A DNA stretch of 64,000 bases from a bacterium. GTDB lineage: Bacteria; Hydrothermota; Tepidihabitantia; SM23-42; JAOAFX01. The notes under the pieces are model-generated. The model saw only the letters and a list, made by a program, of their open reading frames with translations. It was not told the DNA's origin and did not search any database. Positions 60 through 38,015 of the stretch are shown here, piece by piece (position 1 is the first letter of the stretch; each line of letters starts with the position of its first letter). The stretch spans positions 8,323 through 72,322 of the forward strand of contig DASVHD010000016.1 of the NCBI GenBank assembly GCA_036382775.1, written 5' to 3'. A program made the position numbers and the translations under genes.

Positions 60-250
60 CATATCCTAATAAAGGATGAGATTGCTTCCCCTCTTTCCTC
101 GGGACTCCAGTTATCCCCCTCACCCTTACCCTCCCCCTCGAGGGGGGAGGAAAAAGGAGGGGGTGTAAGGTTGCGCACGATGATTGCTCGCAATGACCAC
201 AATAAGACGCTTTGCATCTAATCGGGCAGGCAAAGGGGAGAGGTGAAGAA
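60..250. repeat. composite hairpin-rich repeat cluster (units A', B, E)
   Basis: gagattgcttcccctc...ggactccagttatcccc, ccctcgaggggggaggaaaaaggagggggtg.aaggttgcgcac and gctcgcaatgacc...tgcatctaatcgggcaggca recur at 1255-1700 and 37190-37570. Confidence 0.7.
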
Positions 251-287
251 ACGTGAAACCAATGAGTTCATAATTAAAGTTTTACGC

Positions 288-315
288 TTGACATATACTT
301 ACCTATCGGTATAAT
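288..315 (+). promoter_or_regulatory. sigma70-like promoter TTGACA(288-293)-16 nt-TATAAT(310-315); the ATG at 321 lies 5 nt after the -10, so the transcript is probably leaderless
   Basis: Exact consensus hexamers read directly; no Shine-Dalgarno sequence between the -10 and the ATG. Confidence 0.55.
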
Positions 316-320
316 AGACC

Positions 321-530
321 ATGAAAGCAATGAATATTTTGAGAAAGATTGAGAAGAAATATATCGTGGATGATAAAGGAAGAAAATCCGCAATCATTGT
401 TCCAATCGAAAAATACGAGGAACTTCTTGAAGACATTCATGACCTTGCCATTGTCGCCGAGCGGCGCGATGAAGAGACGGTTAGTTTTTATGACCTTAAG
501 AAAAAATTGAAGAAAAATGGGCTCCTATGA
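321..530 (+). CDS. type II antitoxin (Phd/YefM- or RelB-like), 69 aa
   Basis: Small acidic protein immediately upstream of, and overlapping by 14 nt, a RelE/ParE toxin gene; AT-rich cassette. Confidence 0.6.
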   Translation: MKAMNILRKIEKKYIVDDKGRKSAIIVPIEKYEELLEDIHDLAIVAERRDEETVSFYDLKKKLKKNGLL

Positions 531-789
531 AATTCGATGGAAGAAATCGGCGATTAGCGATCTGCGGAGAATCGACAAGCAGTTTGTCAGCCGAATCATA
601 AGAGGAATTGAAGACTTAGTAACAAATCCTTACCCTGCTCACTCCAAAAAACTCAAGGCCACGGAGCATATTTATCGTTTGCGCATCGGTGATTACCGGG
701 TTGTTTATCATGTAGATGCAGGTGCAAGAACAATAACCATCTATCATATAAGACATCGCAAAGATGTTTACCGCTTCATGAAATTGTAA
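517..789 (+). CDS. RelE/ParE family toxin, 90 aa
   Basis: C-terminal ...YRLRIGDYRVVYHVDAGARTITIYHIRHRKDVYR matches the RelE/ParE signature; start overlaps the antitoxin. Confidence 0.75.
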   Translation: MGSYEIRWKKSAISDLRRIDKQFVSRIIRGIEDLVTNPYPAHSKKLKATEHIYRLRIGDYRVVYHVDAGARTITIYHIRHRKDVYRFMKL

Positions 790-1283
790 TGACAATAATA
801 CAAGGGAAAGCTAAGCTCAACCATCTAAATTCATATAGTCAAAAAAAAGTCGCAACATCCATGTATCAAAAAGGAAAGGATTTCATTCTCGCTGCCATGT
901 TATTAAATCAAAAGAACAGATTTAACTATGTCTACCGCCATTTGATTTGCCAAGAACTTGAAAATATTCTAAAATCATTACTTCTATTCAAAGATTTCAA
1001 ACGGTTCAAACCGCTCTTAAAACCAAGAAGAGAGTTGGGACATGATCTAGAAAAAATAGTACTATGTTGGTCAAAGGAACTTAATGGAAATCGTATTAAC
1101 GTTAAATTGCTTAATGAAATCAAAACACCGAACATATTTTATAAAAATCATCGTCTGAGATACGGGTCAATTGCCGATTTGCTCTTTGATCTTAGAAAAA
1201 GCAAAGTAAAGTCAACAATGAAATTTATTCATAAGATTATTATTAAAGTCAATAAGAAATTGAGATTGCTTCGTCCCGCTTAA
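789..1283 (+). CDS. hypothetical protein, possible HEPN-like (R-x4-H: RRELGHDLEKI) third gene of the TA operon
   Basis: Its ATG overlaps the toxin TAA stop (TAATG); AT-rich; the 3' end runs into a repeat element, so the true stop may be earlier. Confidence 0.35.
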   Translation: MTIIQGKAKLNHLNSYSQKKVATSMYQKGKDFILAAMLLNQKNRFNYVYRHLICQELENILKSLLLFKDFKRFKPLLKPRRELGHDLEKIVLCWSKELNGNRINVKLLNEIKTPNIFYKNHRLRYGSIADLLFDLRKSKVKSTMKFIHKIIIKVNKKLRLLRPA

Positions 1284-1700
1284 GCGGAACTCGCAATGAC
1301 AGAGAGAAAGATAAGATTGCTTTGCACGAGGCATGCTCGCAATGATCCCGATTAGATGCTCTGCATCTAACGGGGCAGGCAGAGGGAGGGATGTAAAAGC
1401 AGAAAACCAGCGACCTTCGGTATGTGAGACCGACGCTCTTTTGCGGACACCCTCAAACCCCATGAAATATCGGGAGTTTTCAGCGAACGCCGCCAGGTCA
1501 CCTTTGGATTCCCCATTTTACTTATTTCATAAGTCCCCTCTCCCACAGGGACACCAATTATTTTTGATGTTCAATTTTTTGATGTTCCTTTTAAAGGGAG
1601 AGGAATAAGGTATGGGTTTAATCCTTAGGTTGCCCCACAGGGACACCAGTATCTTTTATCCAAATTTGTTGAAGCCATCAAGGGAGGGGATTTGTTATAG
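1255..1700. repeat. composite repeat cluster (units A, E, C, D), downstream flank of the TA cassette
   Basis: gagattgcttcgtcccgcttaagcggaactcgcaatgacag (near-identical to 37276-37325); unit E again (1335-1390); cccacagggacacca x2; agggagaggaataaggt.gggttta. Confidence 0.7.
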
Positions 1701-1810: not shown

Positions 1811-2722
1811 ATGATGTTGTTTTTTTCAGCGTTGTTTATTTACGCGGATGAACCAGTGACCGCTAAGATCACGGCCCTCGAAGGTGATGTCCGCATTGTA
1901 AAAAGATCCGACGGCCAGGAGTCCATGGCTCAGCTCCTGGGCGTACTATTTGACGGCGACAGTTTGAAGACCGGGTCTGGATCAAAGGCCACGGTTCTTT
2001 ACGCTAACGGAAAGATCCTGGCGATAAACGATCAGGCGCAGATGGAAATAAAGGGCGCGGTACCGGATACGATCAGGGGCAAAGCGAATGACGGCGCCGG
2101 CGCGACCGCGGGTGACGCGTCAGTTCTGTTCGCGTTCGTCACGGAGAATGAGGCCGGGACGAGGAAACTGATGGTGAGGGGTCCGGAGGATTCTTTCGTT
2201 ATCTATAAACCCGGCAATACGGCGCTGATGGACAGCCGACCCGAATTGCTGTGGAGTTCTCGGCCGGACGCCCAGGCTTACGTGGCGGTTTTCCAGAAAA
2301 TGGGTGATATCGTCATGAGCGTGATCACGGTCGATACATTTCTGGCTTATCCCCAGACCATGAATGATCTTGACCCCGGTTCTTACATGCTAAAAGTAAG
2401 CGCGATCAAAGGAAACGACACGGTCGGGTCCGTAGCGCGGTTCGTGAAGATCTTGAAACCCGAGGATATCGAAGGCGTAAAGACTTTGCTTAAACAGATC
2501 GCCGCGCAGAAGTGTGATCCATTCACGCTTCATTTGCTAAAAGCCCAGGTCTATGAGAAAAAGGGATTGATCGCCGACGCGATCGAACAATATGAGATAT
2601 TGCTCTCGCAAAAGCCGGATGCCGCGGTGATCCACCAGGCATTGTGTACTTTGTACACAAAGCTTGGCGTACAGGCAGCGGCAAATAGTCATCTTGACCA
2701 GTACCGGGAACTCAAACAGTGA
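1811..2722 (+). CDS. FecR-like domain protein with C-terminal TPR-like helices
   Basis: ITALEGDVRIVKR...GDSLKTGSGSKATVLYANG resembles the FecR sensor domain; stop overlaps the CHAT gene start (TGATG). Confidence 0.45.
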   Translation: MMLFFSALFIYADEPVTAKITALEGDVRIVKRSDGQESMAQLLGVLFDGDSLKTGSGSKATVLYANGKILAINDQAQMEIKGAVPDTIRGKANDGAGATAGDASVLFAFVTENEAGTRKLMVRGPEDSFVIYKPGNTALMDSRPELLWSSRPDAQAYVAVFQKMGDIVMSVITVDTFLAYPQTMNDLDPGSYMLKVSAIKGNDTVGSVARFVKILKPEDIEGVKTLLKQIAAQKCDPFTLHLLKAQVYEKKGLIADAIEQYEILLSQKPDAAVIHQALCTLYTKLGVQAAANSHLDQYRELKQ

Positions 2723-5496
2723 TGCTGATCGCCGTCTTTATTTTCGCTGCCTCGTTAGACTTAAGAGTACAAAAGGCGGATTCATTATTCGACATCGAGA
2801 ATTACGCGTCAGCGGAAAGCATTTATACCGGCGTCCTGGCGACCGCCCAGGGCGCGGATAAGGCCGCCTGTTTGAAAGGCCTGGGTAACATCCGGTTCAG
2901 TTATGGCGCGTTCGATAAAGCTTACGTATATTACAACGATGCGTTATCGATATTCAAAAAGATCAAAGACCGGCGCGGGGAGGCCAGGATTGCCATCAAC
3001 CTGGGAAGCCTGTCCGTGTACCGCGGGACGCCCGATAAAGCCATTAAATACTACGACCGGGCGCTGGTCCTGGTGCAAAAGATCAAGGACCCTACCGATG
3101 ATGACCGAAAAGACGAGGCGGCTGTTTACCTGAACAGGGGCCAGGTCTATGAGGACGGACGGCAATACGACAGGGCACGCGGGCAATATCAGGAAGCGCT
3201 GGCGATTTCAGCGGCGATCGGTTATGAACGGGGGATGGCCGACAGTTATTACCACAGCGCGTCGCTTTTCCAAAATGCCGGCGAGGCGGACAGCGCTCTG
3301 TTGTACTTGGGTAAGGCGCAGCGGTCTTATCGACAGCTGAATAACGGCAAGGGCGCAGCCGATTGCCTGCGCGAAGCCGGGAACATCCACCGGAAACTTT
3401 CAGATTACACCGCCGCGCTCGACTGTTTCTTCCGGGCGTTAGACCTGGTGAAGGCGGCAAGAGGTAATGAAAAGAGCGTGCTGGGCGAAGCCGAACTGTG
3501 CATGTACATTGGCCGGTTATATCTTGAGATGGGCAAATACCACGATGCCTTGCAGAACTTCACGGCAGCACGGAAAATATTTGAAGGTTCATACGACCGC
3601 ATGGGCAAGGTCTCGGTATTCGAGAGTATCGCCCAGGCCCATTTGTTCACCGCGATGTACGATAGTGCTTTGTATTATTATGAACAGGCGCAGCAAACAG
3701 CAGTTTCAGATATTCAGAAAGCGAGCCTTGTCAATAATGCAGGCATTGTCTATGAAAAGGAGCATAATTACGATGCCGCCATGAAACAATTCCGGTCTGC
3801 CCTTGACATATATACTTTTTGGCACGACAGCGTTGGCATTGCCAAGGTGATGGGCAATATGGCCAACTGCGCACTGGCCAAAGGTGACTATAACAGTGCC
3901 ATAATCTGGTACCAGACAGCTTTGAGTACTGTAAAGAAACTAAAGCGCCAGGACTGGGAAGTCGGGCTATTCTCCAACCTGGGTCGCGCGCAGCAGGGTG
4001 CCGGCAGGACGAACGATGCGATCCAGTCAATGTGCTCAGCGGTTGACCGCATCGAGGCGCTGCGCGGTAATATAACAAGCCAGGAATTCAGGTCGACGTA
4101 TTTTGAGGATAAGATCAAAGTCTATGAGGAACTGGTCAGTCTGTATTGCGACCAGGGCGACGCGGTCAGCGCATTCAACACGGCCGAGAGAGCGAAAGCC
4201 CGGGCTTTCCTTGATCTGGTCGGCAGCGTGGATTTGAGCAAGCGGGATGACATTGATCCCGGGGTGCGCGTTTTGATCGAAAAGGAGCAGCGCCTGGCGC
4301 GGAAGGTGGAATATTTAACGGGCAGTCCCCAGCAGCCGGCCGCGATCGTGGAGCACGTCCGGGTGACTGACAGCCTGGCGCGGCTGTGGCCCGAATACGC
4401 GGCGCTGAGGTCGGCCCGGCCGGTCGATGTCGGCGGTCTGCAATCGGTCCTGGACAGCAGCACGGCGTTCGTGGAGTATTTTCTTGGCGTCCGCAAGGGA
4501 TTCGTATTCGTAGTGAGGAACAAGAAGATCAGCGTTTTGCCGCTGGGCAAGGATCCGGCCGTCATATATCAGGCCGTGGACTCTTTACGGCGCGAGGTCA
4601 GGCGCAAGGGTAACTATGCTCCCTACGGGCGAATGCTCTTTAACACCTTGCTTTCGCCGGTGTATTCTGACCTGGCGTCGGCCAAACGGGTGGGGATAGT
4701 CCCTCACGGCGTGCTTCATCACCTGCCCTTCTCATTGCTCGTTACGCGGGAAGATCCCCGCCGGCTTTTGATCGAGGACCACGATATTTTTTACGTACCC
4801 TCGGCCTCGGTCTTCGAGATCGCGCACCGGCGGAACACACGGCAGAAAGACCGCGCTGTGGTTTTTGCTAAATCGGATTTTGCCGAACACCCCGACTGGT
4901 TCGACGTGCCGTTGCCGGGCACGAATATCGAGAAAGACTCGCTTCTGGCGCACCGGGTTTTTCCCAAGGTCATAGTATTTTCAGACCGGGACAGCGTTCT
5001 TCCCCTGCCCACCGAAAGCAGTGCCAAGCGCCTGCTCGATTCGTTCGACATTATCCATTTTGCCACGCACGGCAAGCTTGACGAAGAATCACCGCTTGAT
5101 TCCCGCATCGTGCTGGGGGCGGATCCGGCCGAGGACGGCAACCTGAAAGTACGCGAGATCTTCAATCTGGCGGCGCACGCTTACCTGATTACACTTTCCG
5201 CCTGTGAAACCGGGCGGCTAAAAACCTTCGCCGAAACCGGAAAGTACGGCGCGGGCGATGAGCTGACCGGCTTGAGCCGGGCATTCATCTATGCTGGCGC
5301 CGCGTCCGTGGTCGCCTCGCTGTGGAAGGTGAGCGATGCCTCAACCGCCCTGCTCATGGTGGATTTCTATGAGCGTCTGAAGGATCATGACAAAGCTGGC
5401 GCGCTGTGCGCGGCTCAGCGCCGGCTGATGAAAAGCGAATATTATGCTGAACCGTTCTACTGGGCGCCGTTCGTGGTGATCGGGGACTGGAGATGA
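2722..5496 (+). CDS. TPR-repeat protein with C-terminal CHAT (caspase-like) protease domain
   Basis: Many TPR units; C-terminal HFATHG...LSACETG His/Cys dyad typical of CHAT. Confidence 0.8.
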   Translation: MLIAVFIFAASLDLRVQKADSLFDIENYASAESIYTGVLATAQGADKAACLKGLGNIRFSYGAFDKAYVYYNDALSIFKKIKDRRGEARIAINLGSLSVYRGTPDKAIKYYDRALVLVQKIKDPTDDDRKDEAAVYLNRGQVYEDGRQYDRARGQYQEALAISAAIGYERGMADSYYHSASLFQNAGEADSALLYLGKAQRSYRQLNNGKGAADCLREAGNIHRKLSDYTAALDCFFRALDLVKAARGNEKSVLGEAELCMYIGRLYLEMGKYHDALQNFTAARKIFEGSYDRMGKVSVFESIAQAHLFTAMYDSALYYYEQAQQTAVSDIQKASLVNNAGIVYEKEHNYDAAMKQFRSALDIYTFWHDSVGIAKVMGNMANCALAKGDYNSAIIWYQTALSTVKKLKRQDWEVGLFSNLGRAQQGAGRTNDAIQSMCSAVDRIEALRGNITSQEFRSTYFEDKIKVYEELVSLYCDQGDAVSAFNTAERAKARAFLDLVGSVDLSKRDDIDPGVRVLIEKEQRLARKVEYLTGSPQQPAAIVEHVRVTDSLARLWPEYAALRSARPVDVGGLQSVLDSSTAFVEYFLGVRKGFVFVVRNKKISVLPLGKDPAVIYQAVDSLRREVRRKGNYAPYGRMLFNTLLSPVYSDLASAKRVGIVPHGVLHHLPFSLLVTREDPRRLLIEDHDIFYVPSASVFEIAHRRNTRQKDRAVVFAKSDFAEHPDWFDVPLPGTNIEKDSLLAHRVFPKVIVFSDRDSVLPLPTESSAKRLLDSFDIIHFATHGKLDEESPLDSRIVLGADPAEDGNLKVREIFNLAAHAYLITLSACETGRLKTFAETGKYGAGDELTGLSRAFIYAGAASVVASLWKVSDASTALLMVDFYERLKDHDKAGALCAAQRRLMKSEYYAEPFYWAPFVVIGDWR

Positions 5497-5802
5497 ATGA
5501 AAAAACACGCTGACGCTGCAGATACGCCTGCGGCTGTAGACACGGCACAAAGTGCCTGTAGTCATGGGATGCAGCGGTGAAAAAGAATGAAGATGCGAGG
5601 TTGTGAGGATTGGAGGATATGAAAAAGCATATGGGTAAGGGGATATGGGGATGGAAAACGGTGAAGTTATGAAGTTGAGAAGTTATGAGGTTGGGAAATA
5701 ATTAAGAAGTATCTCTGCGGTTTTCCGCGAAAATTTCTGCGGGATCCACGGTTTTGGCTTTAAGCCAAAACAACGAATGGCTAATCTAAAAAAGGAGGAT
5801 GC

Positions 5803-6513
5803 ATGAAAGCCATAACAAAGACACTGGCGATCGTAATGATCGCCGCATTGGTCATACCGGGGCTCGTGATTGCCCAGGCAAAAGGACCAGGGGAAAAAGT
5901 CGGGGCCGGGAAAAAGGAAGTGGTCAAGCTCAAGTACGTGAATATCCAGGATGAGATCAATCCCGATTACAATTTTCTGGCTGATATCGGGTCGATGATC
6001 GACGATGCGCGTCATCTGAAAGACGGTAACAGCATGCTGGCATCGGCGCTCATGCTGATCTACGCGGAAAAGAACGCGGGGAAGAAGAGCCCGGCGGTTA
6101 CGGGCGAAGCGCTGGTGAACGAAGCCGGTGATATCGCCAAGGAGCAGAAGAACGTGAAACTGGCCAAGGCGGTAAGCGACATTTATAGCGATGCCGTCTT
6201 CGGTCTGGGTAACAAGGCGAAAGCCGATGAATTCACCAAGCTGGCGAAGGAATATGACGCGGTCGCGGCCACGACCCGCGGCTATGGCTGGGTGAAGATC
6301 ATCAACGAGTCATCGTATTTTGTCGATATTTACGTTGATGGATATTACAAAGGACGTCTGTACAGCGGTTATTACGCGTTTTACAAGATCTGGGAAGGCA
6401 CGACCAAGCTGTACGCCGAAGCGCCCTATACCGAACCTAACAACTGGTTCTGGGGTCCGAAATGGGTCGAGCTGTACGAAGACGAAACCTACGAATGGAC
6501 GATCACTGACTAA
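5803..6513 (+). CDS. secreted hypothetical protein (signal peptide), 236 aa
   Basis: RBS AAGGAGG 5 nt upstream; N-terminal MKAITKTLAIVMIAALVIPGLVIAQA. Confidence 0.6.
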   Translation: MKAITKTLAIVMIAALVIPGLVIAQAKGPGEKVGAGKKEVVKLKYVNIQDEINPDYNFLADIGSMIDDARHLKDGNSMLASALMLIYAEKNAGKKSPAVTGEALVNEAGDIAKEQKNVKLAKAVSDIYSDAVFGLGNKAKADEFTKLAKEYDAVAATTRGYGWVKIINESSYFVDIYVDGYYKGRLYSGYYAFYKIWEGTTKLYAEAPYTEPNNWFWGPKWVELYEDETYEWTITD

Positions 6514-6521
6514 AAAAGTGC

Positions 6522-6553
6522 GCAATCCCTCCCCTGCAAAGGGGAGGGATTGC
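6522..6553 (+). terminator. GC-rich hairpin (13-bp stem gcaatccctcccc/ggggagggattgc, loop tgcaaa) after the 5803-6513 gene
   Basis: Perfect inverted repeat; no clean U-tract follows. Confidence 0.5.
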
Positions 6554-6603
6554 CAGCCGTTTCAATGGTGCCGGAACCATATGATCAAGGCCTGGGGGTG
6601 GCA

Positions 6604-8331
6604 ATGAAGATATCTTTACTTTCCCTGTTATGCGGTGTTTGTTTTGTGACCTCTATCGGTTTTTGCGATGATGTCGGCAAAGGTCCCGCGTTCGTCGTCA
6701 AGATCAGCGAGGAAGCGGCAAAGGAGATCGAAGCCGAGGATGGCGTGCTGAATAGCCCGGTACTGCTGGATCGCCTGCAGCCGATAGTCGAGGATATCAT
6801 GAAGGCCTCGGACGTGCGGCAGATCTTTCCGTGCCGGATCCTGAAGAGCGACGTCGTGAACGCCTTCGCTTTGCCCGCCGGCCCCGTTTACGTGACGCTG
6901 GGGATGCTGGATTTCCTCGATTCTTTGCGCGATGAAGGCTCACGCTCGGTGATCGCGGGCATCATCGGTCATGAGATCGCCCACGTCTATCTGCGGCATT
7001 CGGTCGCATGGGCGCGCCTTAATAATTTCATGAAAGAACAGCCCTCCCAGATACCGACAGACATTGCCCGCATCCTCGAGCTGGGCTACGTGCGCGAGCA
7101 GGAATTCGAAGCCGATGAATACGGCATCTTGTACGCGATGCGGGCCGGCTATGATTTTGAATCGATCATCAAATTTTACAAAAAAGTGCGGGAAACGTAC
7201 GGTGAAACAGCGCCCGGCGACGAGATGTACGCCGACCATCCTCGAATGACCGAGCGGATCGCGCGGCTGTACGAAGTAAGGGCTCAGATCGAACGGGATT
7301 TTGACCAGTTCAACTACGGGGTCGCGGCACTGGCTGAAGGCCGTTACCCGGACGCCATTTCGGCGTTCCGGGCATTCACCTCGACGTTCGCCAACAGCGC
7401 GACCGGCTGGACGAACCTGGGGACCGCCTATTTGTTCGAGGCCATAGCCAAGGTCGAGGGGCCGCCGGTCCGTTATATGATAACTTATTACGAACAACCC
7501 AAGGATGTTCTGCGCGGAAAACCCGAGGAGCTGATCGAAGCCGAGGAAGCATTCCGGAGGTCGGTCGAGATCGATACTGCGTATAATATCGTGTACAACG
7601 GGAATATGGGGATAATCGCGGCACTAAACGGCGAATATGACAGGGCGCTGGAATTCACAAAAAAAGCCCTGGAGGGCAATGAGGGGCAGCATTTTTTCTA
7701 TAACAATCTCGGCAATATTCTGTTTTTAAAAGAAAGCTATGAGGACGCTGCCGACGCATATAAAAAAGCACTGGACCTGAACGCTTATTGGCCCTTGCCA
7801 AGGTACAACCTCGCCCTTACGTTTGAAAAGGCCGGTCAGAAAGAACTGGCGATCGATACCTGGAAGGAGCTCCTCGACGTGTCCGGTTTCAGCGGCGAGG
7901 CTGTTAAACATCTGACCGCGCTGGACAGCAAATTCAAATCGCCGGTGTACGGGGTAGAGCCTGAAACATGCCTGGCCGGTGTGAAAATAGGCATGATCGA
8001 AGATGACGTGCGCGGACTGTTTGGTGAACCGGGCAACCGGATCGTCCTGGAAAAGATCATCGCCCTTGAGTATGATGTGCCGGGAATCCTGGTCTTTATC
8101 CGCGAAAAATTGGTGAGCGGCGTGCTTGCCGAAGGGGCATTTCAGGGAGCGACGGCCAAGGGCATCAAGATCGGTTCGACCGTTGCGGATGTTCAGGCTG
8201 CGTACGGGCTTCCCGACGACATCATCCAGCAGAAGAGCGATGAGCAGTGGGTCTACGGCCGGGTCGGTCTGATGGTAGGAGTCAGCGGCGGTTACGTCAA
8301 TGGACTGCAGCTGGTGGAGGCGAACAAGTGA
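6604..8331 (+). CDS. M48-family metallopeptidase with TPR repeats (BepA-like)
   Basis: HEIAHVYLRH HExxH motif; lipoprotein-like signal MKISLLSLLCGVC; TPR units in the C-terminal half. Confidence 0.75.
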   Translation: MKISLLSLLCGVCFVTSIGFCDDVGKGPAFVVKISEEAAKEIEAEDGVLNSPVLLDRLQPIVEDIMKASDVRQIFPCRILKSDVVNAFALPAGPVYVTLGMLDFLDSLRDEGSRSVIAGIIGHEIAHVYLRHSVAWARLNNFMKEQPSQIPTDIARILELGYVREQEFEADEYGILYAMRAGYDFESIIKFYKKVRETYGETAPGDEMYADHPRMTERIARLYEVRAQIERDFDQFNYGVAALAEGRYPDAISAFRAFTSTFANSATGWTNLGTAYLFEAIAKVEGPPVRYMITYYEQPKDVLRGKPEELIEAEEAFRRSVEIDTAYNIVYNGNMGIIAALNGEYDRALEFTKKALEGNEGQHFFYNNLGNILFLKESYEDAADAYKKALDLNAYWPLPRYNLALTFEKAGQKELAIDTWKELLDVSGFSGEAVKHLTALDSKFKSPVYGVEPETCLAGVKIGMIEDDVRGLFGEPGNRIVLEKIIALEYDVPGILVFIREKLVSGVLAEGAFQGATAKGIKIGSTVADVQAAYGLPDDIIQQKSDEQWVYGRVGLMVGVSGGYVNGLQLVEANK

Positions 8332-8374
8332 CCGCTCAAACGATCGGTGTTGGGTCGCTCACGAAGGAGGTATC

Positions 8375-10342
8375 ATGAAACGGTCGGCGATCCTTGTGAT
8401 ATTGACCGGCGTAATAGCCGCTGGTGTGGACATCGCAGAGAATTATTTTGTCAAGGGAGTCGAGTCGTATGACGCGGGAGATATCCAGAAAGCGATCCAG
8501 CAGTACACTTATGCGGTAAAACTCCAGCCCGAAGTCGGCATATACCGTCTGGCATTAGGAACCGCATTCGGGAAAAACAACCAGTATCAGGAAGCCCTTC
8601 CGCACCTAAAAAAAGCGGTGGAATACGATTCCACGCTGACCGACGCATATTACTTAATAGAAGATTATTATGCGAAGACCGGCGGCAGCAGACAAGCATT
8701 TGCTTTTTTTTCGGAGCAGCGCCAGCTGCATCCCGAGCGGGCAGCCATCGCGATAAATCTGGGTCATCTTTATTACCGGAGCGGCGATACCGAGAAGGCG
8801 ATAGCCGAATATAGCACAGCCCAGATACTCGATCCTGGCAACCCCGTTCCTTTTTGCGGTCTGGGCGTGGTAGCTCTGGCCCAGGGACGCGATTCCATCG
8901 CTGAAGGTTTCTTTTTAAGCGCGCTGGAAATGGATTCGACGTATGCGGCAGCCCATCTTTATTACAGCTACGTGCTGGAAAGAAAAGGGATGTTGGAACA
9001 GGCCGCGGTTGAAAAAGAAATCGCTTTCAGGTTAAAACCGGAATTAAAAGACCTCGACTTGAGCGGTATCCTGCCGCTGCGCGGGGAAAAGGCTGATATC
9101 CCGTTCATTGTCAGCACACTGGATATCATTATCGATAAGCTCGTCCGTCCCGAAGAACGACGGGCGCTCATGGCCATGCGCAAGCCGTTCGACCTCAATC
9201 TGGGATTGGGATTTGCAAGCGTTGACAGCGATTCCACGCTCTGGCTGGCCTTGACCTCGGCTCCGGAAATGGATATGAACTGGCTCGGCTTCAAGTTGTC
9301 GCTGGGTTTTTTCTTCAATCAGAACGGCGATATGAGGCAGAAGGAACTGGATTACACCAAGATCTTCCAGAACGTTAGGATCGGGCATCCGAACCTTCCG
9401 GTTCACGCGGGGTTCGGCGTGGTTCGGGACTACACGCTCGGGTACGGCTTGATCGTGCGCAGTTATTTTAACCAGGCTGACGAAAATAACCGCAAGTTGG
9501 GCGGCCTTTTCACGCTGCAGACGCCAACCAATACCATCGGGATACATGGCATGCTCAATGATTTCAAGGACCGGGGCGTTATCGCCGGACATGCTTTCCT
9601 TGGCCGCTGGGCTCCGTACCCGGAAGATGTTTTCCAGCGTTTTGAACTGGGTTGTACCTATGCGCAGGATGCCGATAACGAACTCAAGGTCGTCGGCGGG
9701 GACGCGTTGGTCTACCTGGCTTCAAGCGGGAAGTTCCACTTCCTGTTCGTGACCGAAGGAGCCAAGATCCAGGAACACGGGTTTGGTGATATGTCGGGGC
9801 TGATGCTGCATTTTGGCGGTCTTTCACCGCGTGCCTTTTCTTTTTCGCTGTTCGGCGCGGGATTGTTCCTGGCTGCGGATTTTGTCCCGGCGCCTTTTGA
9901 TGCATTTTATGAAAAGAACCGCAAACAATACGGATCTAACGCGGTCAGCACGATGCTGGCGGATTATCAGAGCGCAGGGACCGGTATGTATACAATGACG
10001 GGGTTGCAGCTGGGACCGGTCATCAAACTGACGGTCGATCTCCAGAGCGTTTCCGGCGTGCCAGAGAGCGGCGTTTTTTCCTGCCGCGGCATTGTCGGCG
10101 ATGATATTCCCTATGTTAAGCTCCAGGGGTTTTTCTACAAATACCAGTTCGATGATATGTCAACTCTGACGACGATGGATGAAAATACGTACGTCGCCGG
10201 TTTGGCTGGTATAAAGCTCGTGGGTGAGCTTTTATCAGTGAATTTTCTTTACGAACGCACATACGCGTGGCAGGAAACATCCGGCTCTTATGAAGTGCAG
10301 GAGAGGATCTCGCCTTTTATCCAGTTCGGGACCAGATTTTAG
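8375..10342 (+). CDS. TPR-repeat protein with large C-terminal domain of unknown function
   Basis: RBS GAAGGAGG before the ATG at 8375; signal-anchor MKRSAILVILTGVIAAG; TPR units. Confidence 0.6.
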   Translation: MKRSAILVILTGVIAAGVDIAENYFVKGVESYDAGDIQKAIQQYTYAVKLQPEVGIYRLALGTAFGKNNQYQEALPHLKKAVEYDSTLTDAYYLIEDYYAKTGGSRQAFAFFSEQRQLHPERAAIAINLGHLYYRSGDTEKAIAEYSTAQILDPGNPVPFCGLGVVALAQGRDSIAEGFFLSALEMDSTYAAAHLYYSYVLERKGMLEQAAVEKEIAFRLKPELKDLDLSGILPLRGEKADIPFIVSTLDIIIDKLVRPEERRALMAMRKPFDLNLGLGFASVDSDSTLWLALTSAPEMDMNWLGFKLSLGFFFNQNGDMRQKELDYTKIFQNVRIGHPNLPVHAGFGVVRDYTLGYGLIVRSYFNQADENNRKLGGLFTLQTPTNTIGIHGMLNDFKDRGVIAGHAFLGRWAPYPEDVFQRFELGCTYAQDADNELKVVGGDALVYLASSGKFHFLFVTEGAKIQEHGFGDMSGLMLHFGGLSPRAFSFSLFGAGLFLAADFVPAPFDAFYEKNRKQYGSNAVSTMLADYQSAGTGMYTMTGLQLGPVIKLTVDLQSVSGVPESGVFSCRGIVGDDIPYVKLQGFFYKYQFDDMSTLTTMDENTYVAGLAGIKLVGELLSVNFLYERTYAWQETSGSYEVQERISPFIQFGTRF

Positions 10343-10379
10343 GTTCAGCAGCAGGCGATCCGTGACAAAACCTTTCAGG

Positions 10380-11537
10380 ATGGGCATTACGTTCATCGTG
10401 CTGGCGCTTGGATTGTCGGCGCAGAATGTACGTCTGCCAAACCTGATTCCCTACCGGAAAGACACTTTATGGGGATACTGCGACAGCAATAAGACGCTCA
10501 TTATCCAGCCGCAGTATGACCAGGCTTTCTTGTTTACGGAAGGCCGAGCCCTGGTAGTGCTCGATGGAAAATTCGGATTTATCGACACCCTCGGCAATAT
10601 TGCAGTGCCGTTCATCTATGATAATGCCGGGATATTTAAGGACCGCGCAGCGAAAGTTTGCTTTCAGGGATACTGGGGATTTGTTGACCGGTACGGCAAG
10701 GAATTCCAACCGGCGATATATGATGATGTTGGTGAATTCAGCGACGGTATGGCCGCGGTCAATTACCGCGGAAAGTGGGGTGTAATAGACCGCGCCACCA
10801 GGACGATACTGCCAGTGAAATATGAAGGGGTAAGCAACTTCTACGGTGGATTTGCCCTGGTGCTGCTTGGCGATAAGTACGGTTTCGCCGACGACCAGGG
10901 TCACGAAATCAGTCCGCCTATCTATGATGATGCAGCTGGATTTTTTAGTGATGGTCTGGTCTGGGTGCGGAGCGATAAGAAATTCGGTTTTGTCGATACC
11001 GCGGGGAAAATGGTCATACCTTTAAAGTATGACGGAGCTGGGTCGTTCAGTGAAAATCTTGCGGCCGTGAAAATAAAAAACAAGTGGGGTTATATTGATG
11101 GCCACGGCCGGTTTGTTATCAAGCCAAAGTACGATCAGGCGGCGTGTTTCAGTCAGGGATTAGCGGCCGTAAGGAATAATGGTAAATACGGCTATATTAA
11201 CACGAAGGGAAAGATTAAGATCCCGTTTCGGTATGATCATGCCGGCGATTTTGCATGGGGTCTTGCGGTGGCGGGAGTAGACAGCGGAGTTGGGATTATC
11301 GATAAAAAAGGAAAGGTGATTATACCACTGACCTATACGTCGGCTTATATCATGGGCGATGGGCTCTTCAGGATTGAAATGGATGGTAAGTACGGGTTGG
11401 TCAATGCGACGGGTGGAATAGTGGCATCAATAAAATATGACGATATCTTAACGACGTACCAGGGCTTAATCCCGGTGCTCTACCACGGGGAGCGGGGGTT
11501 TATCGATTGCCGGGGCCGGGAATATTTTGAAGATTGA
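10380..11537 (+). CDS. WG-repeat (KWG) protein, secreted
   Basis: Repeated ~35-aa units with KFGFIDTxGKxVIPxKYDxA; signal peptide. Confidence 0.7.
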   Translation: MGITFIVLALGLSAQNVRLPNLIPYRKDTLWGYCDSNKTLIIQPQYDQAFLFTEGRALVVLDGKFGFIDTLGNIAVPFIYDNAGIFKDRAAKVCFQGYWGFVDRYGKEFQPAIYDDVGEFSDGMAAVNYRGKWGVIDRATRTILPVKYEGVSNFYGGFALVLLGDKYGFADDQGHEISPPIYDDAAGFFSDGLVWVRSDKKFGFVDTAGKMVIPLKYDGAGSFSENLAAVKIKNKWGYIDGHGRFVIKPKYDQAACFSQGLAAVRNNGKYGYINTKGKIKIPFRYDHAGDFAWGLAVAGVDSGVGIIDKKGKVIIPLTYTSAYIMGDGLFRIEMDGKYGLVNATGGIVASIKYDDILTTYQGLIPVLYHGERGFIDCRGREYFED

Positions 11538-11567
11538 CCAGTGGGTATTTGAGTTAAGGGGGAACAT

Positions 11568-16595: not shown

Positions 16596-16843
16596 ACAAT
16601 GAAGAGATGCAGAGAAGCAGGGGAGAAAATAGATGGGATGAAGGGATGCAAGAACCGCGAACCGTCAATCCTAAACCGTAAACCGTGGAAAAAGAGATGT
16701 AGGGCAAGGTCATGATCCCGCGACGCGAGGCTTTAGCCTTGCAAAAAAGGAGTTAACTCGTAAGAGTTTTAAATAAAAGCCTTACGGCTTAATTCCTGGC
16801 AATGCATCGAAGGCTCCCTTAAAAGGGTAAAGGGTGATAAGAA

Positions 16844-16874
16844 CCCGCTGGATGCATTTGATGCATCCAGCGGG
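16844..16874. terminator. perfect 14-bp-stem hairpin cccgctggatgcat-ttg-atgcatccagcggg
   Basis: Inverted repeat read directly; lies ~30 nt 3' of the minus-strand gene 16903-17529. Confidence 0.4.
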
Positions 16875-17664: not shown

Positions 17665-17681
17665 AAAGTGCCCAGCACTTT
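17665..17681. promoter_or_regulatory. palindrome AAAGTGC-CCA-GCACTTT (second copy at 37908-37924)
   Basis: 7-bp perfect inverted arms; identical 17-mer at both island borders; half-site also at ~37998-38008. Confidence 0.45.
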
Positions 17682-17952
17682 CTGAATGTATTTTGCCGTT
17701 ATAATAAATGTTGCATATTATTGAAGCTGGACCGCTGCTACTAGTCAGACACCCCTATATTCTTTATATGTTTTGATTTTACGAACATATAGCGGACAGG
17801 CCGGTTATGGTTGGTTTTGATGCACTATCTTACGTGATTTCAAGATGTTACTAAAAATGAACTGCGAGTGAGTGATTTTTTGTGTTATTTTGGTCGGTTT
17901 TAAGCCTAAAACACCATGAAATATCGTGAGATTCAGGCGCGCTGACAAGTCT

Positions 17953-18023
17953 ATTCCGGATTCCCCGTTTTTTTTATAATCATAGAAACATATAAGGAAA
18001 CGGGACTATAGTGTACCATGTTG
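17953..18023. repeat. ~70-bp direct repeat, left copy (attccccgtttt...gggactatagtgtaccatgttg); candidate island boundary
   Basis: Matches 37166-37226 (attccccgcttt...gcgggactatagtgtgccatgttg). Confidence 0.55.
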
Positions 18024-21899: not shown

Positions 21900-22135
21900 T
21901 TCCTATCATCAGCACAGGGTGGTTTTCCGCACCGCTCATTTTTGCCGCAGCAGGTCTTGTCTTTATTTAAGCCACCTGCCTTTGTGCTCAGCGGGACGTG
22001 GCTCTTTGAAAATATCCGGTTCAATTCCTTGCTGCCACAATATTGGCATTTAATCTCTGCATCGCCTTGTTCCATGCCGACTAGGAATTCGTTAATCGCA
22101 GCATAGAGTGCGCACCGGTATTCATAAATCGGCAT
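21887..22135 (-). CDS. FmdB-family zinc-ribbon protein (copy 1)
   Basis: MPIYEY-R-C... CQYCGSKEL; paralog of 26978-27226; its stop overlaps the next gene's start by 13 nt. Confidence 0.6.
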   Translation of the reverse strand: MPIYEYRCALYAAINEFLVGMEQGDAEIKCQYCGSKELNRIFSKSHVPLSTKAGGLNKDKTCCGKNERCGKPPCADDRKCIR

Positions 22136-22237
22136 CTGAATTCCCTTTATTTAACCCTTATATTGTATCTCACTAAACAATAATCTCCTCTTTTAGCACG
22201 ATCTACCATAACATCAAACAAATTTTCAATTACTGGT

Positions 22238-23407: not shown

Positions 23408-23556
23408 TATCGCCTCGGGTTCGGCAAAGATGGGAAGAAAAAGGCTTCCCCTGATCAGATGCAATGGCAAGCTTGTTTAGGACATATCCTTTGTCTTCCC
23501 CCATCTCTGATGGTTTTTTGTAATCCTGCCGGTAAACTTCGTCTTCTTTATATTCT

Positions 23557-27226: not shown

Positions 27227-27315
27227 ATGGACTTTGCGTTATCGCGCTGGTCTCATATATATCTCCTTGGCTCAAGCCTTCATTAGATGAACAATTAATA
27301 GGGGACCAAGGGACC

Positions 27316-27705: not shown

Positions 27706-27709
27706 AAAT

Positions 27710-37165: not shown

Positions 37166-37226
37166 CATATTCCCCGCTTTGGCCGCTAATACAAACAATG
37201 ATGCGGGACTATAGTGTGCCATGTTG
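37166..37226. repeat. ~70-bp direct repeat, right copy (candidate island boundary)
   Basis: Matches 17953-18023. Confidence 0.55.
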
Positions 37227-37259
37227 CGACTGAAATGTACAGCAGCCCTATAATAAATA

Positions 37260-37570
37260 TAATGTGAAATAAAAAGTTGAGATTGCTTCGTCCCGCTTAA
37301 GCGGAACTCGTAATGACAGGGAGACAGATGAGATTGCTTCCCCTCGTTCTTAGGGACACCAGTTATCCCCCCCACCCTTACCCTCCTCCTAACAGGACTC
37401 CAGTTATCCCTCACCCCTACCCTCTCCCTTTCCAAGGGAGAGGAATAAGGTGAGGGTTTAGTCTTTGATGCTGCCCTCGAGGGGGGAGGAAAAAGGAGGG
37501 GGTGAAAGGTTGCGCACAAAGAGCGTTCGCCATGACAACAAACAAACAGCCGATTCTGCTTTTTTTCAAA
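37260..37570. repeat. composite repeat cluster (units A, A', C, D, B); full-length counterpart of the elements flanking the TA cassette
   Basis: 37276-37325 matches 1264-1312 with 2 mismatches; 37327-37375 matches 78-125; 37433-37465 matches 1596-1630; 37473-37518 matches 133-178. Confidence 0.7.
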
Positions 37571-37769: not shown

Positions 37770-38015
37770 TAATGGCTCGGTTTTATTCCCCTCCCTCTTA
37801 TTCCCTCCCGCAGGGGGAGGGAAGTGAGTAGGAGGGGCGGGAGCCGGCAAAGAGTCACAAGCCCTTCGTAATGGTAATAGTCCGATGCAGGCGGATGATA
37901 TTGTTTGGAAAGTGCCCAGCACTTTTTGAAACCTGACCGATTGAGCAACAAATACGATTTATTGTAAAAGCAGTATGCGATGATTTGTTCTGCGGTGGTG
38001 TTAAAAAGTGCTGGG

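What the first reader, a model, noticed from the sequence alone, without database searches (positions are those of the whole stretch)
60..1700. TA cassette embedded between copies of a composite hairpin repeat; the same element is intact at 37.3 kb
The AT-rich antitoxin/RelE/HEPN-like cassette (321-1283) is flanked by sub-units of a repeat family whose contiguous version sits at 37260-37570.
- Unit A' and unit B lie upstream (78-178). Unit A lies downstream (1264-1312; identical to 37276-37325 with 2 mismatches) together with units C and D.
- A ~60-bp unit E (gctcgcaatgaYc...tgcatctaa.gggcaggca.agggagg) occurs as a direct repeat on both sides of the cassette (190-245 and 1335-1390).
- Units contain short perfect palindromes (ccgcttaagcgg; ccccctcgaggggg), i.e. 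they are stem-loop forming.
- This looks like a MITE/REP-like or attC-like structured element that has captured, or been split by, a foreign TA cassette. No integron integrase or transposase is in the window.
Basis: seen in the sequence. Interest (0 to 1): 0.55.

Follow-up and report, generated by a model that had tools for sequence, protein, structure and literature searches.

The report
Hairpin repeat mosaic flanking toxin-antitoxin cassette
The repeats around this toxin-antitoxin cassette are real: they are a patchwork of small hairpin-forming mobile DNA units that probably derive from one end of a single-strand (Y1/HUH) transposase element, not an integron-like site that captured the cassette.

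Summary
The repeats exist and are far beyond chance, but they are not one element that is "intact" at 37.3 kb. They are a mosaic of at least three hairpin families.

- **Shell:** GAGATTGCTTCG-[variable stem-loop]-CTCGCAATGAC. It occurs in genomes titled as more than 15 bacterial groups and in viral contigs, often as head-to-head doublets like REPINs.
- **Long hairpins:** C-rich/G-rich hairpins that sit nested inside shells and inside each other.
- **E hairpin plus tail:** specific to this lineage.

The RelB/ParE/HEPN-like cassette sits in a slot that holds different cargo in a related genome. Two 81%-identical shell-E-tail modules flank it in direct orientation.

On a contig from the same sample as a close relative, the same cassette (94.5% nt identity) lies elsewhere. 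There a 267-aa Y1 transposase gene cuts its third gene. That Y1 gene carries a shell 31-40 nt after its stop codon in all four orthologues examined, across three genomic contexts.

Best reading: these are REP/BIME-like non-autonomous remnants of one end of a Y1 element, and the cassette is a separately mobile neighbour. The attC and "capture/split" readings are not supported. No Rfam family matched, and two sequence-word literature searches found no description of the shell.

The parts
72..265 (+). Upstream shell-E-tail module. Shell arms GAGATTGCTTC (78-88) and CTCGCAATGAC (187-197); nested long C-rich/G-rich hairpin at about 89-171 (core 117-163); E hairpin at about 198-226; tail ending GAAACCAATGA at 265.
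280..1283 (+). Three-gene cassette with its own perfect sigma-70-type promoter (288-315): RelB-like antitoxin 321-530, ParE/RelE toxin 517-789, HEPN-like ORF3 789-1283. ORF3's last 6 codons and its stop codon come from unit A.
   Evidence: Window 280-1163 is 94.5% identical to L144 3934-4818.
1251..1300 (+). Unit A: A-rich leader plus a shell (1262-1300) whose interior is the palindrome CCGCTTAAGCGG.
   Evidence: 39.6 bits. The same interior occurs in relative L138 at 4780-4818.
1305..1413 (+). Downstream shell-E-tail module. Degenerate left arm 1313-1323, 12-nt interior GCACGAGGCATG, right arm 1336-1346, E hairpin 1347-1375, tail ending GAAAACCAGCGA at 1413.
   Evidence: Window 1290-1439 is 90.7% identical to L136 2789-2938.
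1404..1480 (-). Unit F. On the minus strand it reads like the anticodon arm, variable loop and 5' half of the T stem of a Met/Val-like tRNA. It also holds the terminator-like hairpin at 1417-1433.
   Evidence: (93.5% to L144 5895-5971). ARAGORN calls no tRNA here, so the tRNA reading is my inspection of the sequence.
1452..1520 (+). Unit G (CCATGAAATATCGGGAG...GGATTCCCC), repeated at 17905-17975.
   Evidence: One search compared, by eye.
1537..1690 (+). Both start with the CCCACAGGGACACCA motif (1545-1562, 1633-1650). The right arm 1587-1626 is 85% identical to 37427-37466.
   Evidence: (D6).
37205..37263 (+). GGGACTATAGTGTGCCATGTTG motif (also at 17996-18023) plus a promoter-like block (TGTACA-16-TATAAT, 37236-37263) directly upstream of unit A. 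The block is conserved in L134.
   Evidence: (82.5% to L134 1045-1123).
37268..37317 (+). Second copy of unit A (shell 37279-37317, 1 mismatch in the right arm).
   Evidence: 31.8 bits.
37327..37536 (+). Shell (left arm 37330-37340; degenerate right arm TTCGCCATGAC 37526-37536) containing long hairpin 1, which in turn contains an 87-nt long hairpin 2 inserted at its apex (about 37389-37475 in alignment A1).
   Evidence: (z = -4.0 for 37390-37470).
37776..37848 (+). A separate long C-rich/G-rich hairpin of the same general type, in the same intergenic region.
   Evidence: z = -4.55.

Best explanation
The composite repeat is a REP/BIME-like mosaic. It was built by successive, partly nested insertions of small hairpin-forming units into permissive intergenic DNA at the edges of variable genome segments.

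Its backbone is the shell: GAGATTGCTTCG-[variable stem-loop]-CTCGCAATGAC. In this lineage the shell forms the hairpin-bearing end of a roughly 1.1-1.2-kb element. That element encodes a 267-aa Y1 (HUH) tyrosine transposase of the RAYT/TIRYT type, with a C-terminal helix-turn-helix in some family members.

The two shell-E-tail modules that flank the cassette in direct orientation are transposase-less copies of that end. E is a secondary hairpin inserted between shell and tail. The long C/G-rich hairpin is a further insert inside the upstream shell.

The proposed mechanism is inferred, not shown. The units fold as hairpins in single-stranded DNA and are cut and re-joined in trans by the Y1 enzyme, as for REP/REPIN-RAYT systems and IS200/IS605 ends. 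Hairpin apexes and the position just after GAGATTGCTTC act as preferred insertion points.

The RelB/ParE/HEPN-like cassette is a separate horizontally moving module. It landed in, or travelled with, this repeat-rich junction. It did not split the element and was not captured by it.
For: Shown:
1. Repeats are non-random. Some units fold more stably than shuffles: unit A minus strand z = -3.45, downstream module z about -2.6 to -3.0, 37390-37470 z = -4.0. The 75-200 unit and the upstream E region do not (z about -1 to -1.75 and +0.75 / -1.1).
2. Shells recur at another locus of the same contig as a head-to-head doublet (L001 5984-6118), which is conserved in two relatives. Short-read contigs end at window 149, 1289 and 1543, all inside units.
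3. The exact-arm shell was found in at least 120 genome stretches, spanning Chloroflexota, Patescibacteria, Bacteroidota isolates, Planctomycetota, Omnitrophota and others, and in at least 120 viral-contig stretches.
4. The shell's inner stem covaries: 88% of cells pair, 4 of 6 inner pairs change on both sides, and 0 of 500 shuffles reach the observed value.
5. Shells show no orientation bias relative to flanking ORFs (32 same, 30 opposite).
6. Adjacent shell pairs prefer the '-+' arrangement: 61 against 12 for '+-'. This is REPIN-like.
7. Nested insertion: relative to window 70-205, the 37.3-kb copy has an 87-nt insert and the L006 copy has a different 51-nt insert at the same column, the hairpin apex. 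Both inserts begin TCC..ACAGG(G)AC.CCA.
8. The E hairpin is present in 4 modules and absent from the 2 modules that sit next to a Y1 gene.
9. Y1 link: L137 10227-11030 is a Y1_Tnp protein (PF01797, E 4.4e-9). It has 244 relatives, many named RayT by JGI. All 4 orthologues at 79-100% identity (L137, L138, L144, L145) have a shell 31-40 nt after the stop codon, in 3 different genomic contexts. L138 comes from the same genome as the window's 82% relative.
10. In L144 the same cassette (94.5% nt) is cut in ORF3 by the Y1 unit. That unit's shell and tail join the same F sequence as in the window (93.5%).
11. In L137 a copy without the Y1 gene (left end + 3 shells + E + tail) lies beside the full copy.

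Background: REP-RAYT and BIME biology (PMC2817692, PMC3333891, PMC3116915); Y1 subclass 2.1 / TIRYT (PMC6006769, PMC3733652).
Against: - No Y1 gene or left-end motif occurs in the 64-kb window. The source genome's own Y1 copy was not recovered.
- The three more distant family members examined (46-50% identity to the L137 protein; L139, L140, L142) have no shells. They have other inverted repeats instead.
- None of about 240 shell-bearing loci from other groups or viruses encodes a detectable relative of this Y1 family. The cross-group spread of the shell therefore cannot be credited to this enzyme.
- The Y1 unit's other end has no shell-like hairpin, unlike IS200/IS605 ends. Shells flank the gene in direct orientation, not the inverted orientation typical of RAYTs.
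- The Y1 protein scores below the NCBIfam cut-offs for both REP_Tyr_transpos (33.8 against 80) and IS200 (17 against 55).
- Quentin et al. found no REPs near subclass 2.1 genes (PMC6006769).
- Genome-wide copy number in the source organism is unknown.
- L144 may belong to a different population from L006. The comparison "cassette more conserved than core" (94.5% against 83.8%) is therefore only suggestive.
Confidence: 0.55

Rival explanations
1. Host-function hairpins. The units are mainly transcription terminators, mRNA 3'-end stabilisers, or parts of a small structured RNA (promoter, then A, shell, E, then terminator). They are kept by selection rather than spread by transposition.
For: - Unit A starts at the last codons of ORF3 and supplies its stop codon.
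- A terminator-like hairpin lies at 1417-1433.
- A promoter-like block directly upstream of unit A at 37236-37263 is conserved in L134, where promoter-like block, shell, E and F are contiguous.
- The shell folds better on one strand as RNA in 115 of 134 cases.
Against: - Shells show no orientation bias relative to neighbouring genes (32/30) and are as frequent between divergent genes as between convergent ones (13/14).
- The L001 doublet lies between divergently transcribed genes and, by my reading, upstream of a promoter-like site for the downstream gene.
- Shells have no T-run.
- No Rfam family matches, even at E up to 10.
- The strand asymmetry in folding energy could come from the GA/GAA internal loop rather than from G-U pairs; I did not count G-U pairs.
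- Nested, site-specific insertion polymorphisms are not expected of a regulatory element.
Confidence: 0.15
2. Integration scars. The two 81%-identical direct repeats are attL/attR-like products of site-specific or homologous (Campbell-type) integration of a small island that carries the cassette. The tRNA-like F would be the remnant of a tRNA target.
For: - Two modules in direct orientation bracket the cassette.
- A tRNA-like fragment lies right after the downstream module.
- The slot is hypervariable between relatives.
- A homologue of ORF3 lies about 230 nt upstream of a sequence at the L130 contig end that looks like the reverse complement of a tRNA 3' end. This is my reading; ARAGORN calls no tRNA there.
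Against: - Divergence between the two copies is spread evenly, with no identical core longer than 12 nt.
- The fragment is the 5'/middle part of a tRNA, not the 3' part that integrases usually duplicate. ARAGORN finds no tRNA.
- In L144 the cassette has no upstream module.
- No integrase was found among the ORFs scanned.
- F is joined to the same tail at 4 or more different loci, so it behaves as part of the repeat rather than as a target.
Confidence: 0.12
3. A single MITE-like or attC-like structured element (A-A'-B-C-D-E) is intact at 37.3 kb and was split by, or captured, the TA cassette.
For: Two unit types (A; shell plus long hairpin) are shared between the two loci and are contiguous at 37.3 kb. 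TA cassettes with their own promoters are typical cargo of chromosomal integrons (general knowledge).
Against: - The 37.3-kb locus lacks E, tail and F, and carries an extra insert.
- Unit order at locus 1 (shell-E | TA | A-shell-E) cannot be obtained by cutting A-shell once.
- No target-site duplication was evident by eye in the 15-nt flanks of the shells. The shell arms are complementary over only about 5-6 nt.
- E has no attC box layout or length. No IntI was found.
- Each unit occurs independently elsewhere.
Confidence: 0.04

Closest known systems
REP / BIME elements and REPIN-RAYT systems (E. coli, Pseudomonas; PMC2817692, PMC3333891, PMC3116915)
   Same: - Short imperfect palindromes in intergenic DNA.
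- They occur singly, as preferred inverted doublets with a short spacer, and in mosaic clusters with other motifs.
- They are associated with a Y1/HUH transposase gene that carries the repeat next to it.
- They are non-autonomous.
   Different: - There is no GTAG or CGTC tag.
- The conserved part is the outer arms, with a free, covarying interior. In classical REPs the whole palindrome is conserved.
- The same arms occur in many bacterial groups and in viral contigs, whereas REP/REPIN families are lineage-specific and vertically inherited.
- Shells sit on the 3' side of the Y1 gene in direct orientation.
- The Y1 protein scores below the RAYT equivalog cut-off.
IS200/IS605 ends and their transposase-less derivatives
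   Same: - A Y1 transposase gene has a subterminal hairpin about 30-35 nt from one element end.
- The junction is conserved (…GGGAAACCAG-YGA).
- In L144 the left end abuts the interrupted gene directly. No target-site duplication was looked for.
- Transposase-less copies of the end exist.
   Different: - Only one end carries the shell hairpin; the other end has an unrelated sequence (GGCRGCTGCC-ATTAATTGTAAACTTT).
- The protein is about 267 aa with a C-terminal extension.
- The NCBIfam IS200 score is 17 against a cut-off of 55.
TIRYT / TIRtrons, equivalent to Y1 subclass 2.1 (PMC3733652, PMC6006769)
   Same: - Long Y1 proteins, with a C-terminal HTH_23 or Bac_DnaA_C-like domain in some family members.
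- Three more distant family members (L139, L140, L142) are bracketed by inverted repeats.
- The 5' motif of the long-hairpin units (AGGGACAC / CGGGACTC) resembles the published TIR consensus GGGGWSAS in 6-7 of 8 positions.
   Different: - The orthologue group linked to this locus is not bracketed by terminal inverted repeats. It carries a REP-like shell, which the published surveys did not find for this subclass.
- The GGGGWSAS resemblance is a short-motif observation, not a test.
Small nested repeats: cyanobacterial small dispersed repeats (my recollection), and REP dimers inserted inside longer palindromes (PMC3733652, section 7)
   Same: Very small hairpin units are found inserted into one another and into the loops of other palindromes, preserving overall foldability.
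   Different: The sequences and host lineages differ. Here three layers (shell, long hairpin 1, long hairpin 2) are documented, with two independent inserts at one apex.
Integron attC sites
   Same: Imperfect palindromes flank a promoter-bearing TA cassette.
   Different: There are no R''/L''/L'/R' boxes, no 57-141-nt bipartite stem, no extrahelical-base pattern, no intI, and no cassette array.

Membership tests
REP/BIME (REPIN-RAYT) | Short (20-40 nt) imperfect palindrome able to form a stem-loop | tested here: met
   Shells are 30-60 nt with an ATTGC/GCAAT outer stem plus a covarying inner stem.
REP/BIME (REPIN-RAYT) | High copy number (over 100 per genome) in extragenic DNA of the host genome | tested here: inconclusive
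   I count 8 shells at 3 loci in the roughly 72 kb available (window plus L001). Short-read contigs break inside units. The whole genome was not available.
REP/BIME (REPIN-RAYT) | Organisation as inverted doublets (REPINs) and mosaic clusters | tested here: met
   Adjacent pairs: '-+' 61 against '+-' 12. The L001 5984-6118 doublet is conserved in L006 and L007. Window loci are mosaic clusters.
REP/BIME (REPIN-RAYT) | Cognate single-copy RAYT gene flanked by the repeats in inverted orientation | tested here: inconclusive
   A shell lies 31-40 nt 3' of the Y1 gene in 4 of 4 orthologues. Shells lie 5' of the gene only in L137, and all are in direct orientation. The protein scores 33.8 bits against a cut-off of 80 for NF047646.
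REP/BIME (REPIN-RAYT) | GTAG or CGTC tetranucleotide tag at one end (Di Nocera superfamilies) | tested here: not met
   Shell ends are GAGATTGC... and ...GCAATGAC. No GTAG or CGTC tag is present.
IS200/IS605 | Y1 HUH transposase (HUH motif and catalytic Tyr) | tested here: met
   PF01797, E 4.4e-9. H60, H62 and Y119 are invariant in the family alignment; I read these as the HUH histidines and the catalytic tyrosine. This holds for relatives' loci only; there is none in the window.
IS200/IS605 | Similar subterminal hairpins at both ends (LE and RE) | tested here: not met
   One end carries the shell. The other carries GGCRGCTGCC-ATTAATTGTAAACTTT, and that palindrome is not conserved.
IS200/IS605 | Insertion next to a fixed 4-5-nt target, without target duplication | tested here: inconclusive
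   All six module ends read ...GAAACCA(G/A)(C/T)GA and then diverge, so a short conserved junction is possible. There are too few independent junctions to separate element end from target.
TIRYT / Y1 subclass 2.1 | Long Y1 protein with a C-terminal HTH (HTH_23, HTH_28 or Bac_DnaA_C) and flanking terminal inverted repeats | tested here: inconclusive
   Some family members carry PF13384 or PF08299. The L137 protein itself hits only PF01797. TIRs were seen for three more distant family members but not for this orthologue group.
Integron attC | R''-L''...L'-R' boxes (RYYYAAC / GTTRRRY), 57-141 nt, an adjacent intI, and a cassette array | tested here: not met
   E is an 8-13-bp stem with a 3-nt loop. 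ATCTAAC fits RYYYAAC only as one arm of a simple palindrome. No integrase was found in the ORFs scanned. There is a single cassette, not an array.
MITE | Terminal inverted repeats plus target-site duplication | tested here: not met
   The arms are complementary over only 5-6 nt. No duplicated flank was evident by eye in the 15-nt flanks listed for 152 units.
Type II toxin-antitoxin (RelB/ParE-RelE) | Small overlapping antitoxin and toxin genes with matching Pfam domains and their own promoter | tested here: met
   PF18506 at 33.2 bits (cut-off 27); PF05016 at 57.8 bits (cut-off 23); 14-nt gene overlap; perfect TTGACA-16-TATAAT at 288-315.
HEPN domain | Four-helix up-down bundle with an Rx4-6H motif | tested here: inconclusive
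   All-helical model with pLDDT 89.7. Best PDB hit is HEPN 4nqf (TM 0.50-0.55, E 0.6). 11 of 40 relatives hit PF05168 weakly. H85 is invariant, but the preceding Arg is not conserved.

The most novel reading that the evidence does not exclude
The shell hairpin (invariant arms GAGATTGCTTCG / CTCGCAATGAC around a free, covarying stem-loop) may be an undescribed pan-bacterial and phage-borne REPIN-like replicator. It may also be the long-missing repeat partner of the large HTH-bearing Y1 transposase subclass 2.1 / TIRYT. Small hairpin units of this system would then insert site-specifically into the apex of other hairpins, building nested mosaics that mark the borders of variable genome segments.
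Probability: 0.25. Interest if true: 0.75.

Novelty: new variant of a known kind. Interest (0 to 1): 0.55.

Why it matters
REP/REPIN elements are usually lineage-specific passengers tied to one domesticated RAYT. Here a hairpin keeps the same 11-nt arms in genomes titled as more than 15 bacterial groups and in viral contigs. It still shows REPIN-like doublets and a covarying interior. In one lineage it forms the end of a Y1 transposase unit that demonstrably sits at different loci.

If the link holds, it would give a testable substrate for the large Y1 subclass that currently has no known repeat. It would also give a marker for junctions of variable genome segments in uncultured bacteria.

There are practical consequences too. 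These units break short-read assemblies. They also create spurious ORFs and artificial C-termini, as with the last six codons of ORF3 here.

Tried and rejected
- **Rfam.** The whole window at gathering threshold, and both loci at E up to 10, gave only noise matches such as miRNA precursor families and the archaeal Pab91 snoRNA.
- **Literature by peptide words and by the 11-mers.** Only unrelated papers and primer sequences came back.
- **"Empty versus filled shell" idea.** I first read the downstream shell as an empty site. L136 shows that the GCACGAGGNNTG interior is itself a normal shell subtype, so only the insertion point is kept as evidence.
- **E as a high-copy or cassette-bounding family.** A metagenome scan found only 4 stretches, one of them this locus.
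- **Y1 genes next to shells in other groups or viruses.** A family HMM found none in about 240 loci. A search of viral contigs with the Y1 protein-family alignment found no relative. Plasmid tblastn gave only 26-33% identical homologues.
- **tRNA at F.** ARAGORN was negative.
- **Left-end motif of the Y1 unit, and the inverted repeat of the distant family members, in the window.** Neither is present.
- **Taxon names for the relatives.** None are on record.
- **attC and classical MITE readings.** Rejected on their defining features; see the membership table.
Full report

Yes in substance. The repeat finder on the whole window links the start of the window to 37.3 kb:
- 75-138 to 37327-37390 (91%)
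- 135-202 to 37474-37541 (88%)
- 1251-1322 to 37268-37339 (92%)
- 1587-1626 to 37427-37466 (85%)

It also links the two sides of the cassette, 175-237 to 1324-1386 (81%). The 39-nt core of unit A occurs twice with at most one mismatch, against 0 expected in 100 shuffles. The motif GGGACWCCAGTTATCC occurs 4 times against 0.66 expected.

The cassette is as described:
- RelB-like antitoxin, 321-530
- ParE/RelE toxin, 517-789
- a third ORF, 789-1283
- a perfect TTGACA-16-TATAAT promoter at 288-315

The third ORF has no Pfam hit of its own. It belongs to a family of at least 244 proteins of about 160 aa. Eleven of 40 aligned members weakly hit HEPN. A confident AlphaFold model (pLDDT 89.7) has a HEPN protein as its best solved match (4nqf, TM 0.50-0.55). 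"HEPN-like" is therefore plausible but not proven.

GC is 33-41% over the cassette and 50-58% in the genes that follow.

**2. Anatomy**

(a) **Shell.** Left arm GAGATTGCTTC(G), a variable interior, right arm CTCGCAATGAC. The arms pair as ATTGC/GCAAT, and the interior forms its own stem-loop. The window holds five:
- 78-197
- 1262-1300
- 1313-1346
- 37279-37317
- 37330-37536 (right arm degenerate)

A covariance model built from foreign copies finds the three with short interiors.

(b) **Long C-rich/G-rich hairpins**, such as CCCTCACCC..CCCTCCCC-loop-GGGGAGG..GGGTGAGGG. They usually begin with (C)ACAGGGAC(A/T)CCAGTTATCC. They are one shell whose interior is such a long hairpin.

Alignment A1 shows that window 70-205 is the basic form. 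The 37.3-kb copy carries an 87-nt insert, itself a strong hairpin (z = -4.0). A copy in a relative (L006 8960-9140) carries a different 51-nt insert. Both inserts sit at the same column, the apex of the long hairpin, and both begin TCC..ACAGG(G)AC.CCA. Two different inserts at one apex argue for site-specific insertion rather than deletion. The result is three nested layers: shell, long hairpin 1, long hairpin 2.

(c) **E hairpin plus tail.** Aligning six copies defines a module:

AAAGAT-shell-[E hairpin CCCGATTAGATGC-TNT-GCATCTAACGGGG-CAGGC]-AGAGGGAGGGATG..GGGAAACCAG(C/T)GA

After the final GA the sequences diverge. E is present in four copies and absent in two, so it is a secondary insert. 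The window's two copies are 72-265 (with the long hairpin nested in its shell) and 1305-1413. These two modules, in direct orientation and 81% identical, are what flank the cassette.

Downstream follows F (1404-1480). On the minus strand F reads like the anticodon arm, variable loop and T-stem 5' half of a Met/Val-like tRNA. ARAGORN calls no tRNA, so this is my reading of the sequence.

After F comes a unit G (1452-1520) that recurs at 17905-17975. Two degenerate long-hairpin units follow at 1537-1690.

**3. The 37.3-kb locus is not the intact element**

It contains a conserved promoter-like block, unit A, and a shell with doubly nested long hairpins. It has no E, tail, F or G. The unit order at locus 1 (shell-E-tail | cassette | A, shell-E-tail, F) cannot be produced by one cut in A-shell. 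The two loci are independent clusters that share unit types.

**4. Genomic context**

The window start is 100% identical to JGI and Logan contigs. The Logan contigs end at window positions 149, 1289 and 1543, all inside units. Upstream lies a hybrid-cluster-protein (HCP) gene, and a further shell doublet (L001 5984-6118) lies between rubrerythrin and HCP.

Two relatives were found through the 303-aa TPR protein:
- L007 (NCBI GCA_040961595.1, 82% aa identity)
- L006 (JGI 3300060291, 84% aa identity; 83.8% nt identity over 10.3 kb)

Homology between the window and L007 ends at about window 60 and, by BLAST, resumes at 1675. By eye, a short match already appears at about 1519. In L007 the slot holds about 3.6 kb of other cargo: a HicB-like gene (by eye), a PIN gene with a small 73-aa partner, and others. 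In L006 the HCP gene is missing and IS3 fragments are present. The cassette and its repeats therefore fill a hypervariable slot.

The 37.3-kb cluster lies near the right edge of a 20.3-kb segment (17694-38002) that L007 lacks. In both cases the hairpin clusters sit at borders of variable segments.

**5. The shell is very widespread**

The record titles span Chloroflexota (including Chloroflexus islandicus), Patescibacteria, Bacteroidota isolates (Chryseobacterium, Pedobacter, Lacinutrix), Planctomycetota, Omnitrophota, Atribacterota, Gammaproteobacteria and others. A scan of IMG/VR also hit the limit.

Properties of the family:
- Interiors differ but pair. In a gap-free set of 26 units, 88% of cells pair, 4 of 6 inner pairs show double changes, and no shuffle reaches the observed value.
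- Units show no orientation bias relative to neighbouring ORFs, and no preference for convergent over divergent intergenic regions. That argues against a strand-specific RNA role.
- Adjacent units strongly prefer the head-to-head arrangement, 61 against 12. This is the geometry of REPINs (PMC3116915).

No Rfam family matches. Two full-text searches with peptide fragments and with the 11-mers found no description. The library covers only open-access papers, so absence there is weak evidence.

**6. Link to a Y1 transposase**

A metagenome scan for the E core found only four stretches. One of them (L137) has three shells + E + tail directly upstream of a 267-aa protein with a Y1_Tnp domain (PF01797, E 4.4e-9). 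The protein scores below the NCBIfam cut-offs for both RAYT and IS200. It has 244 relatives, many labelled RayT by JGI, and several with named sources from candidate divisions WOR-3 and TA06. Some carry HTH_23 or Bac_DnaA_C domains. This corresponds to Y1 subclass 2.1 / TIRYT, for which published surveys found no REPs (PMC6006769; PMC3733652).

All four orthologues examined have AATAAAGAT-shell starting 31-40 nt after the stop codon. All have A-rich-GGCRGCTGCC-ATTAATTGTAAACTTT upstream. They lie in three different gene neighbourhoods:
- L137
- L138, from the same genome as L007
- L144, from the same sample as L006
- L145

Gene and shell therefore move as one unit. L137 also holds a version without the Y1 gene (left end + shells + E + tail) beside the full copy. 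Three more distant family members (46-50% identity to the L137 protein) lack shells and are bracketed by other inverted repeats. No Y1 gene or left-end motif is in the window.

**7. The cassette moves independently**

L144 carries the same cassette at a different locus: 94.5% nt identity over 885 nt, matching window 280-1163. No shell module lies upstream of it. Its left flank instead resembles, by eye, sequence found just downstream of the HCP gene in L007.

In L144, ORF3 is cut at the equivalent of window position 1163 by the left end of the Y1 unit. After the Y1 gene come shell, a short tail and the same F (93.5%). The downstream composite in the window (A, shell-E-tail, F) thus occupies the place of the hairpin-bearing end of a Y1 unit in that contig. 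The simplest reading is that the window's modules are transposase-less copies of that end.

The cassette's 94.5% identity against about 84% for core genes suggests recent exchange. The caveat is that L144 and L006 may belong to different populations within one sample.

Comparison with the only close ORF3 homologue shows that the native protein ends near residue 158. The last six codons and the stop codon come from unit A.

**8. Mechanism: shown and inferred**

Shown:
- hairpin potential and covariation
- dispersal across loci, relatives and distant groups
- REPIN-like doublets
- nested insertion at fixed points
- physical linkage of the shell to a mobile Y1 gene
- independent relocation of the cassette

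Inferred:
- the Y1 enzyme acts in trans on shell-bearing modules as single-stranded hairpins, by analogy with TnpA of IS608 and TnpA-REP (PMC3333891)
- the long hairpins and E use the same or a related activity
- hairpin apexes are the targets

Unexplained:
- why the same arms occur across so many groups when no relative of this Y1 family is detectable next to them
- what F is

**9. Verdict**

The "REP-like" reading is right. The "attC-like" and "captured or split" readings are not supported.

I file this as a new variant of a known kind: a REP/BIME-like mosaic tied to a Y1 transposase. The shell family's very broad distribution is a notable side finding that deserves a dedicated survey.

Noticed in passing
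window 17694-38002: A 20.3-kb lower-GC segment (FeoB, two Fur-family genes, two Cys/Met PLP enzymes, two M23 peptidases, a ParA/NUBPL-type ATPase and others) is absent from relative L007, where 158 nt take its place. Identical copies of the small palindrome AAGTGCCCAGCACTTT lie near both edges (17666-17681, 37910-37925), and L007 has similar copies close together.
   Followed up: partly
window 17905-18023: Another small repeat cluster. 17905-17975 resembles 1452-1520 (unit G), and 17996-18023 (GGGACTATAGTGTACCATGTTG) resembles 37205-37232. The latter motif is also in L134 and L137.
   Followed up: partly
window 1404-1480 (minus strand); L137 12605-12700: Unit F reads like part of a Met/Val-like tRNA (anticodon arm TCGGT-CTCACAT-ACCGA, T stem GCTGG). 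A copy in L137 also has the T loop and acceptor 3' strand. ARAGORN calls none of them. It could be a tRNA pseudogene, a target, or a tRNA-derived repeat.
   Followed up: partly
window 21886-23474 vs 26977-27862 and 33976-34968: Diverged paralogous blocks (71-82% nt; families D1-D3, D11, D13 and D17). They include a second Cys/Met PLP enzyme plus M23 peptidase pair.
   Followed up: no
window 2719-16595: Large TPR/CHAT-domain genes (925 aa, 1675 aa and neighbours; Pfam labels taken from the orthologous L002/L006 gene tables) are present in the window and in L006. They are largely absent from L007 (window 2724-5756, 6516-10400 and 11534-16843 have no counterpart).
   Followed up: no
window 6522-6553; 16844-16874; 50942-51024: Other strong local hairpins: GCAATCCCTCCCCT-N4-AGGGGAGGGATTGC and CCCGCTGGATGCAT-N3-ATGCATCCAGCGGG, both in gaps between listed ORFs, and a 40-nt-arm AT-rich hairpin.
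   Followed up: no
L137 10227-12100: Tandem partial duplication around the Y1 gene. There are three copies of its upstream region and a 65-aa 5' fragment identical to the full gene's start. By eye there is also a duplicated 3' end of the neighbouring DUF4438-type gene.
   Followed up: partly
L139, L140, L142: More distant members of the Y1 family are bracketed by repeats of a different sequence, in inverted orientation in L139 (e.g. CAGACAGGTGTAAACTTGTAAAC ... GTTTACAAGTTTACACCTGTCTG). This fits the published TIRtron layout. The GTAAACTT motif also occurs upstream of the shell-linked orthologues.
   Followed up: partly
L012, L043, L050 (Chloroflexus): Shells occur as tandem direct arrays with about 50-nt periodicity and near-identical 15-nt spacers.
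   Followed up: no
L130 (homologue of ORF3): The only close homologue of the HEPN-like ORF3 (46% identity) lies in a defence-island-like context: a type I restriction-modification system, an HNH gene and DUF4314. The contig end, about 230 nt downstream, looks like part of a tRNA gene. No RelB/ParE genes are present.
   Followed up: no
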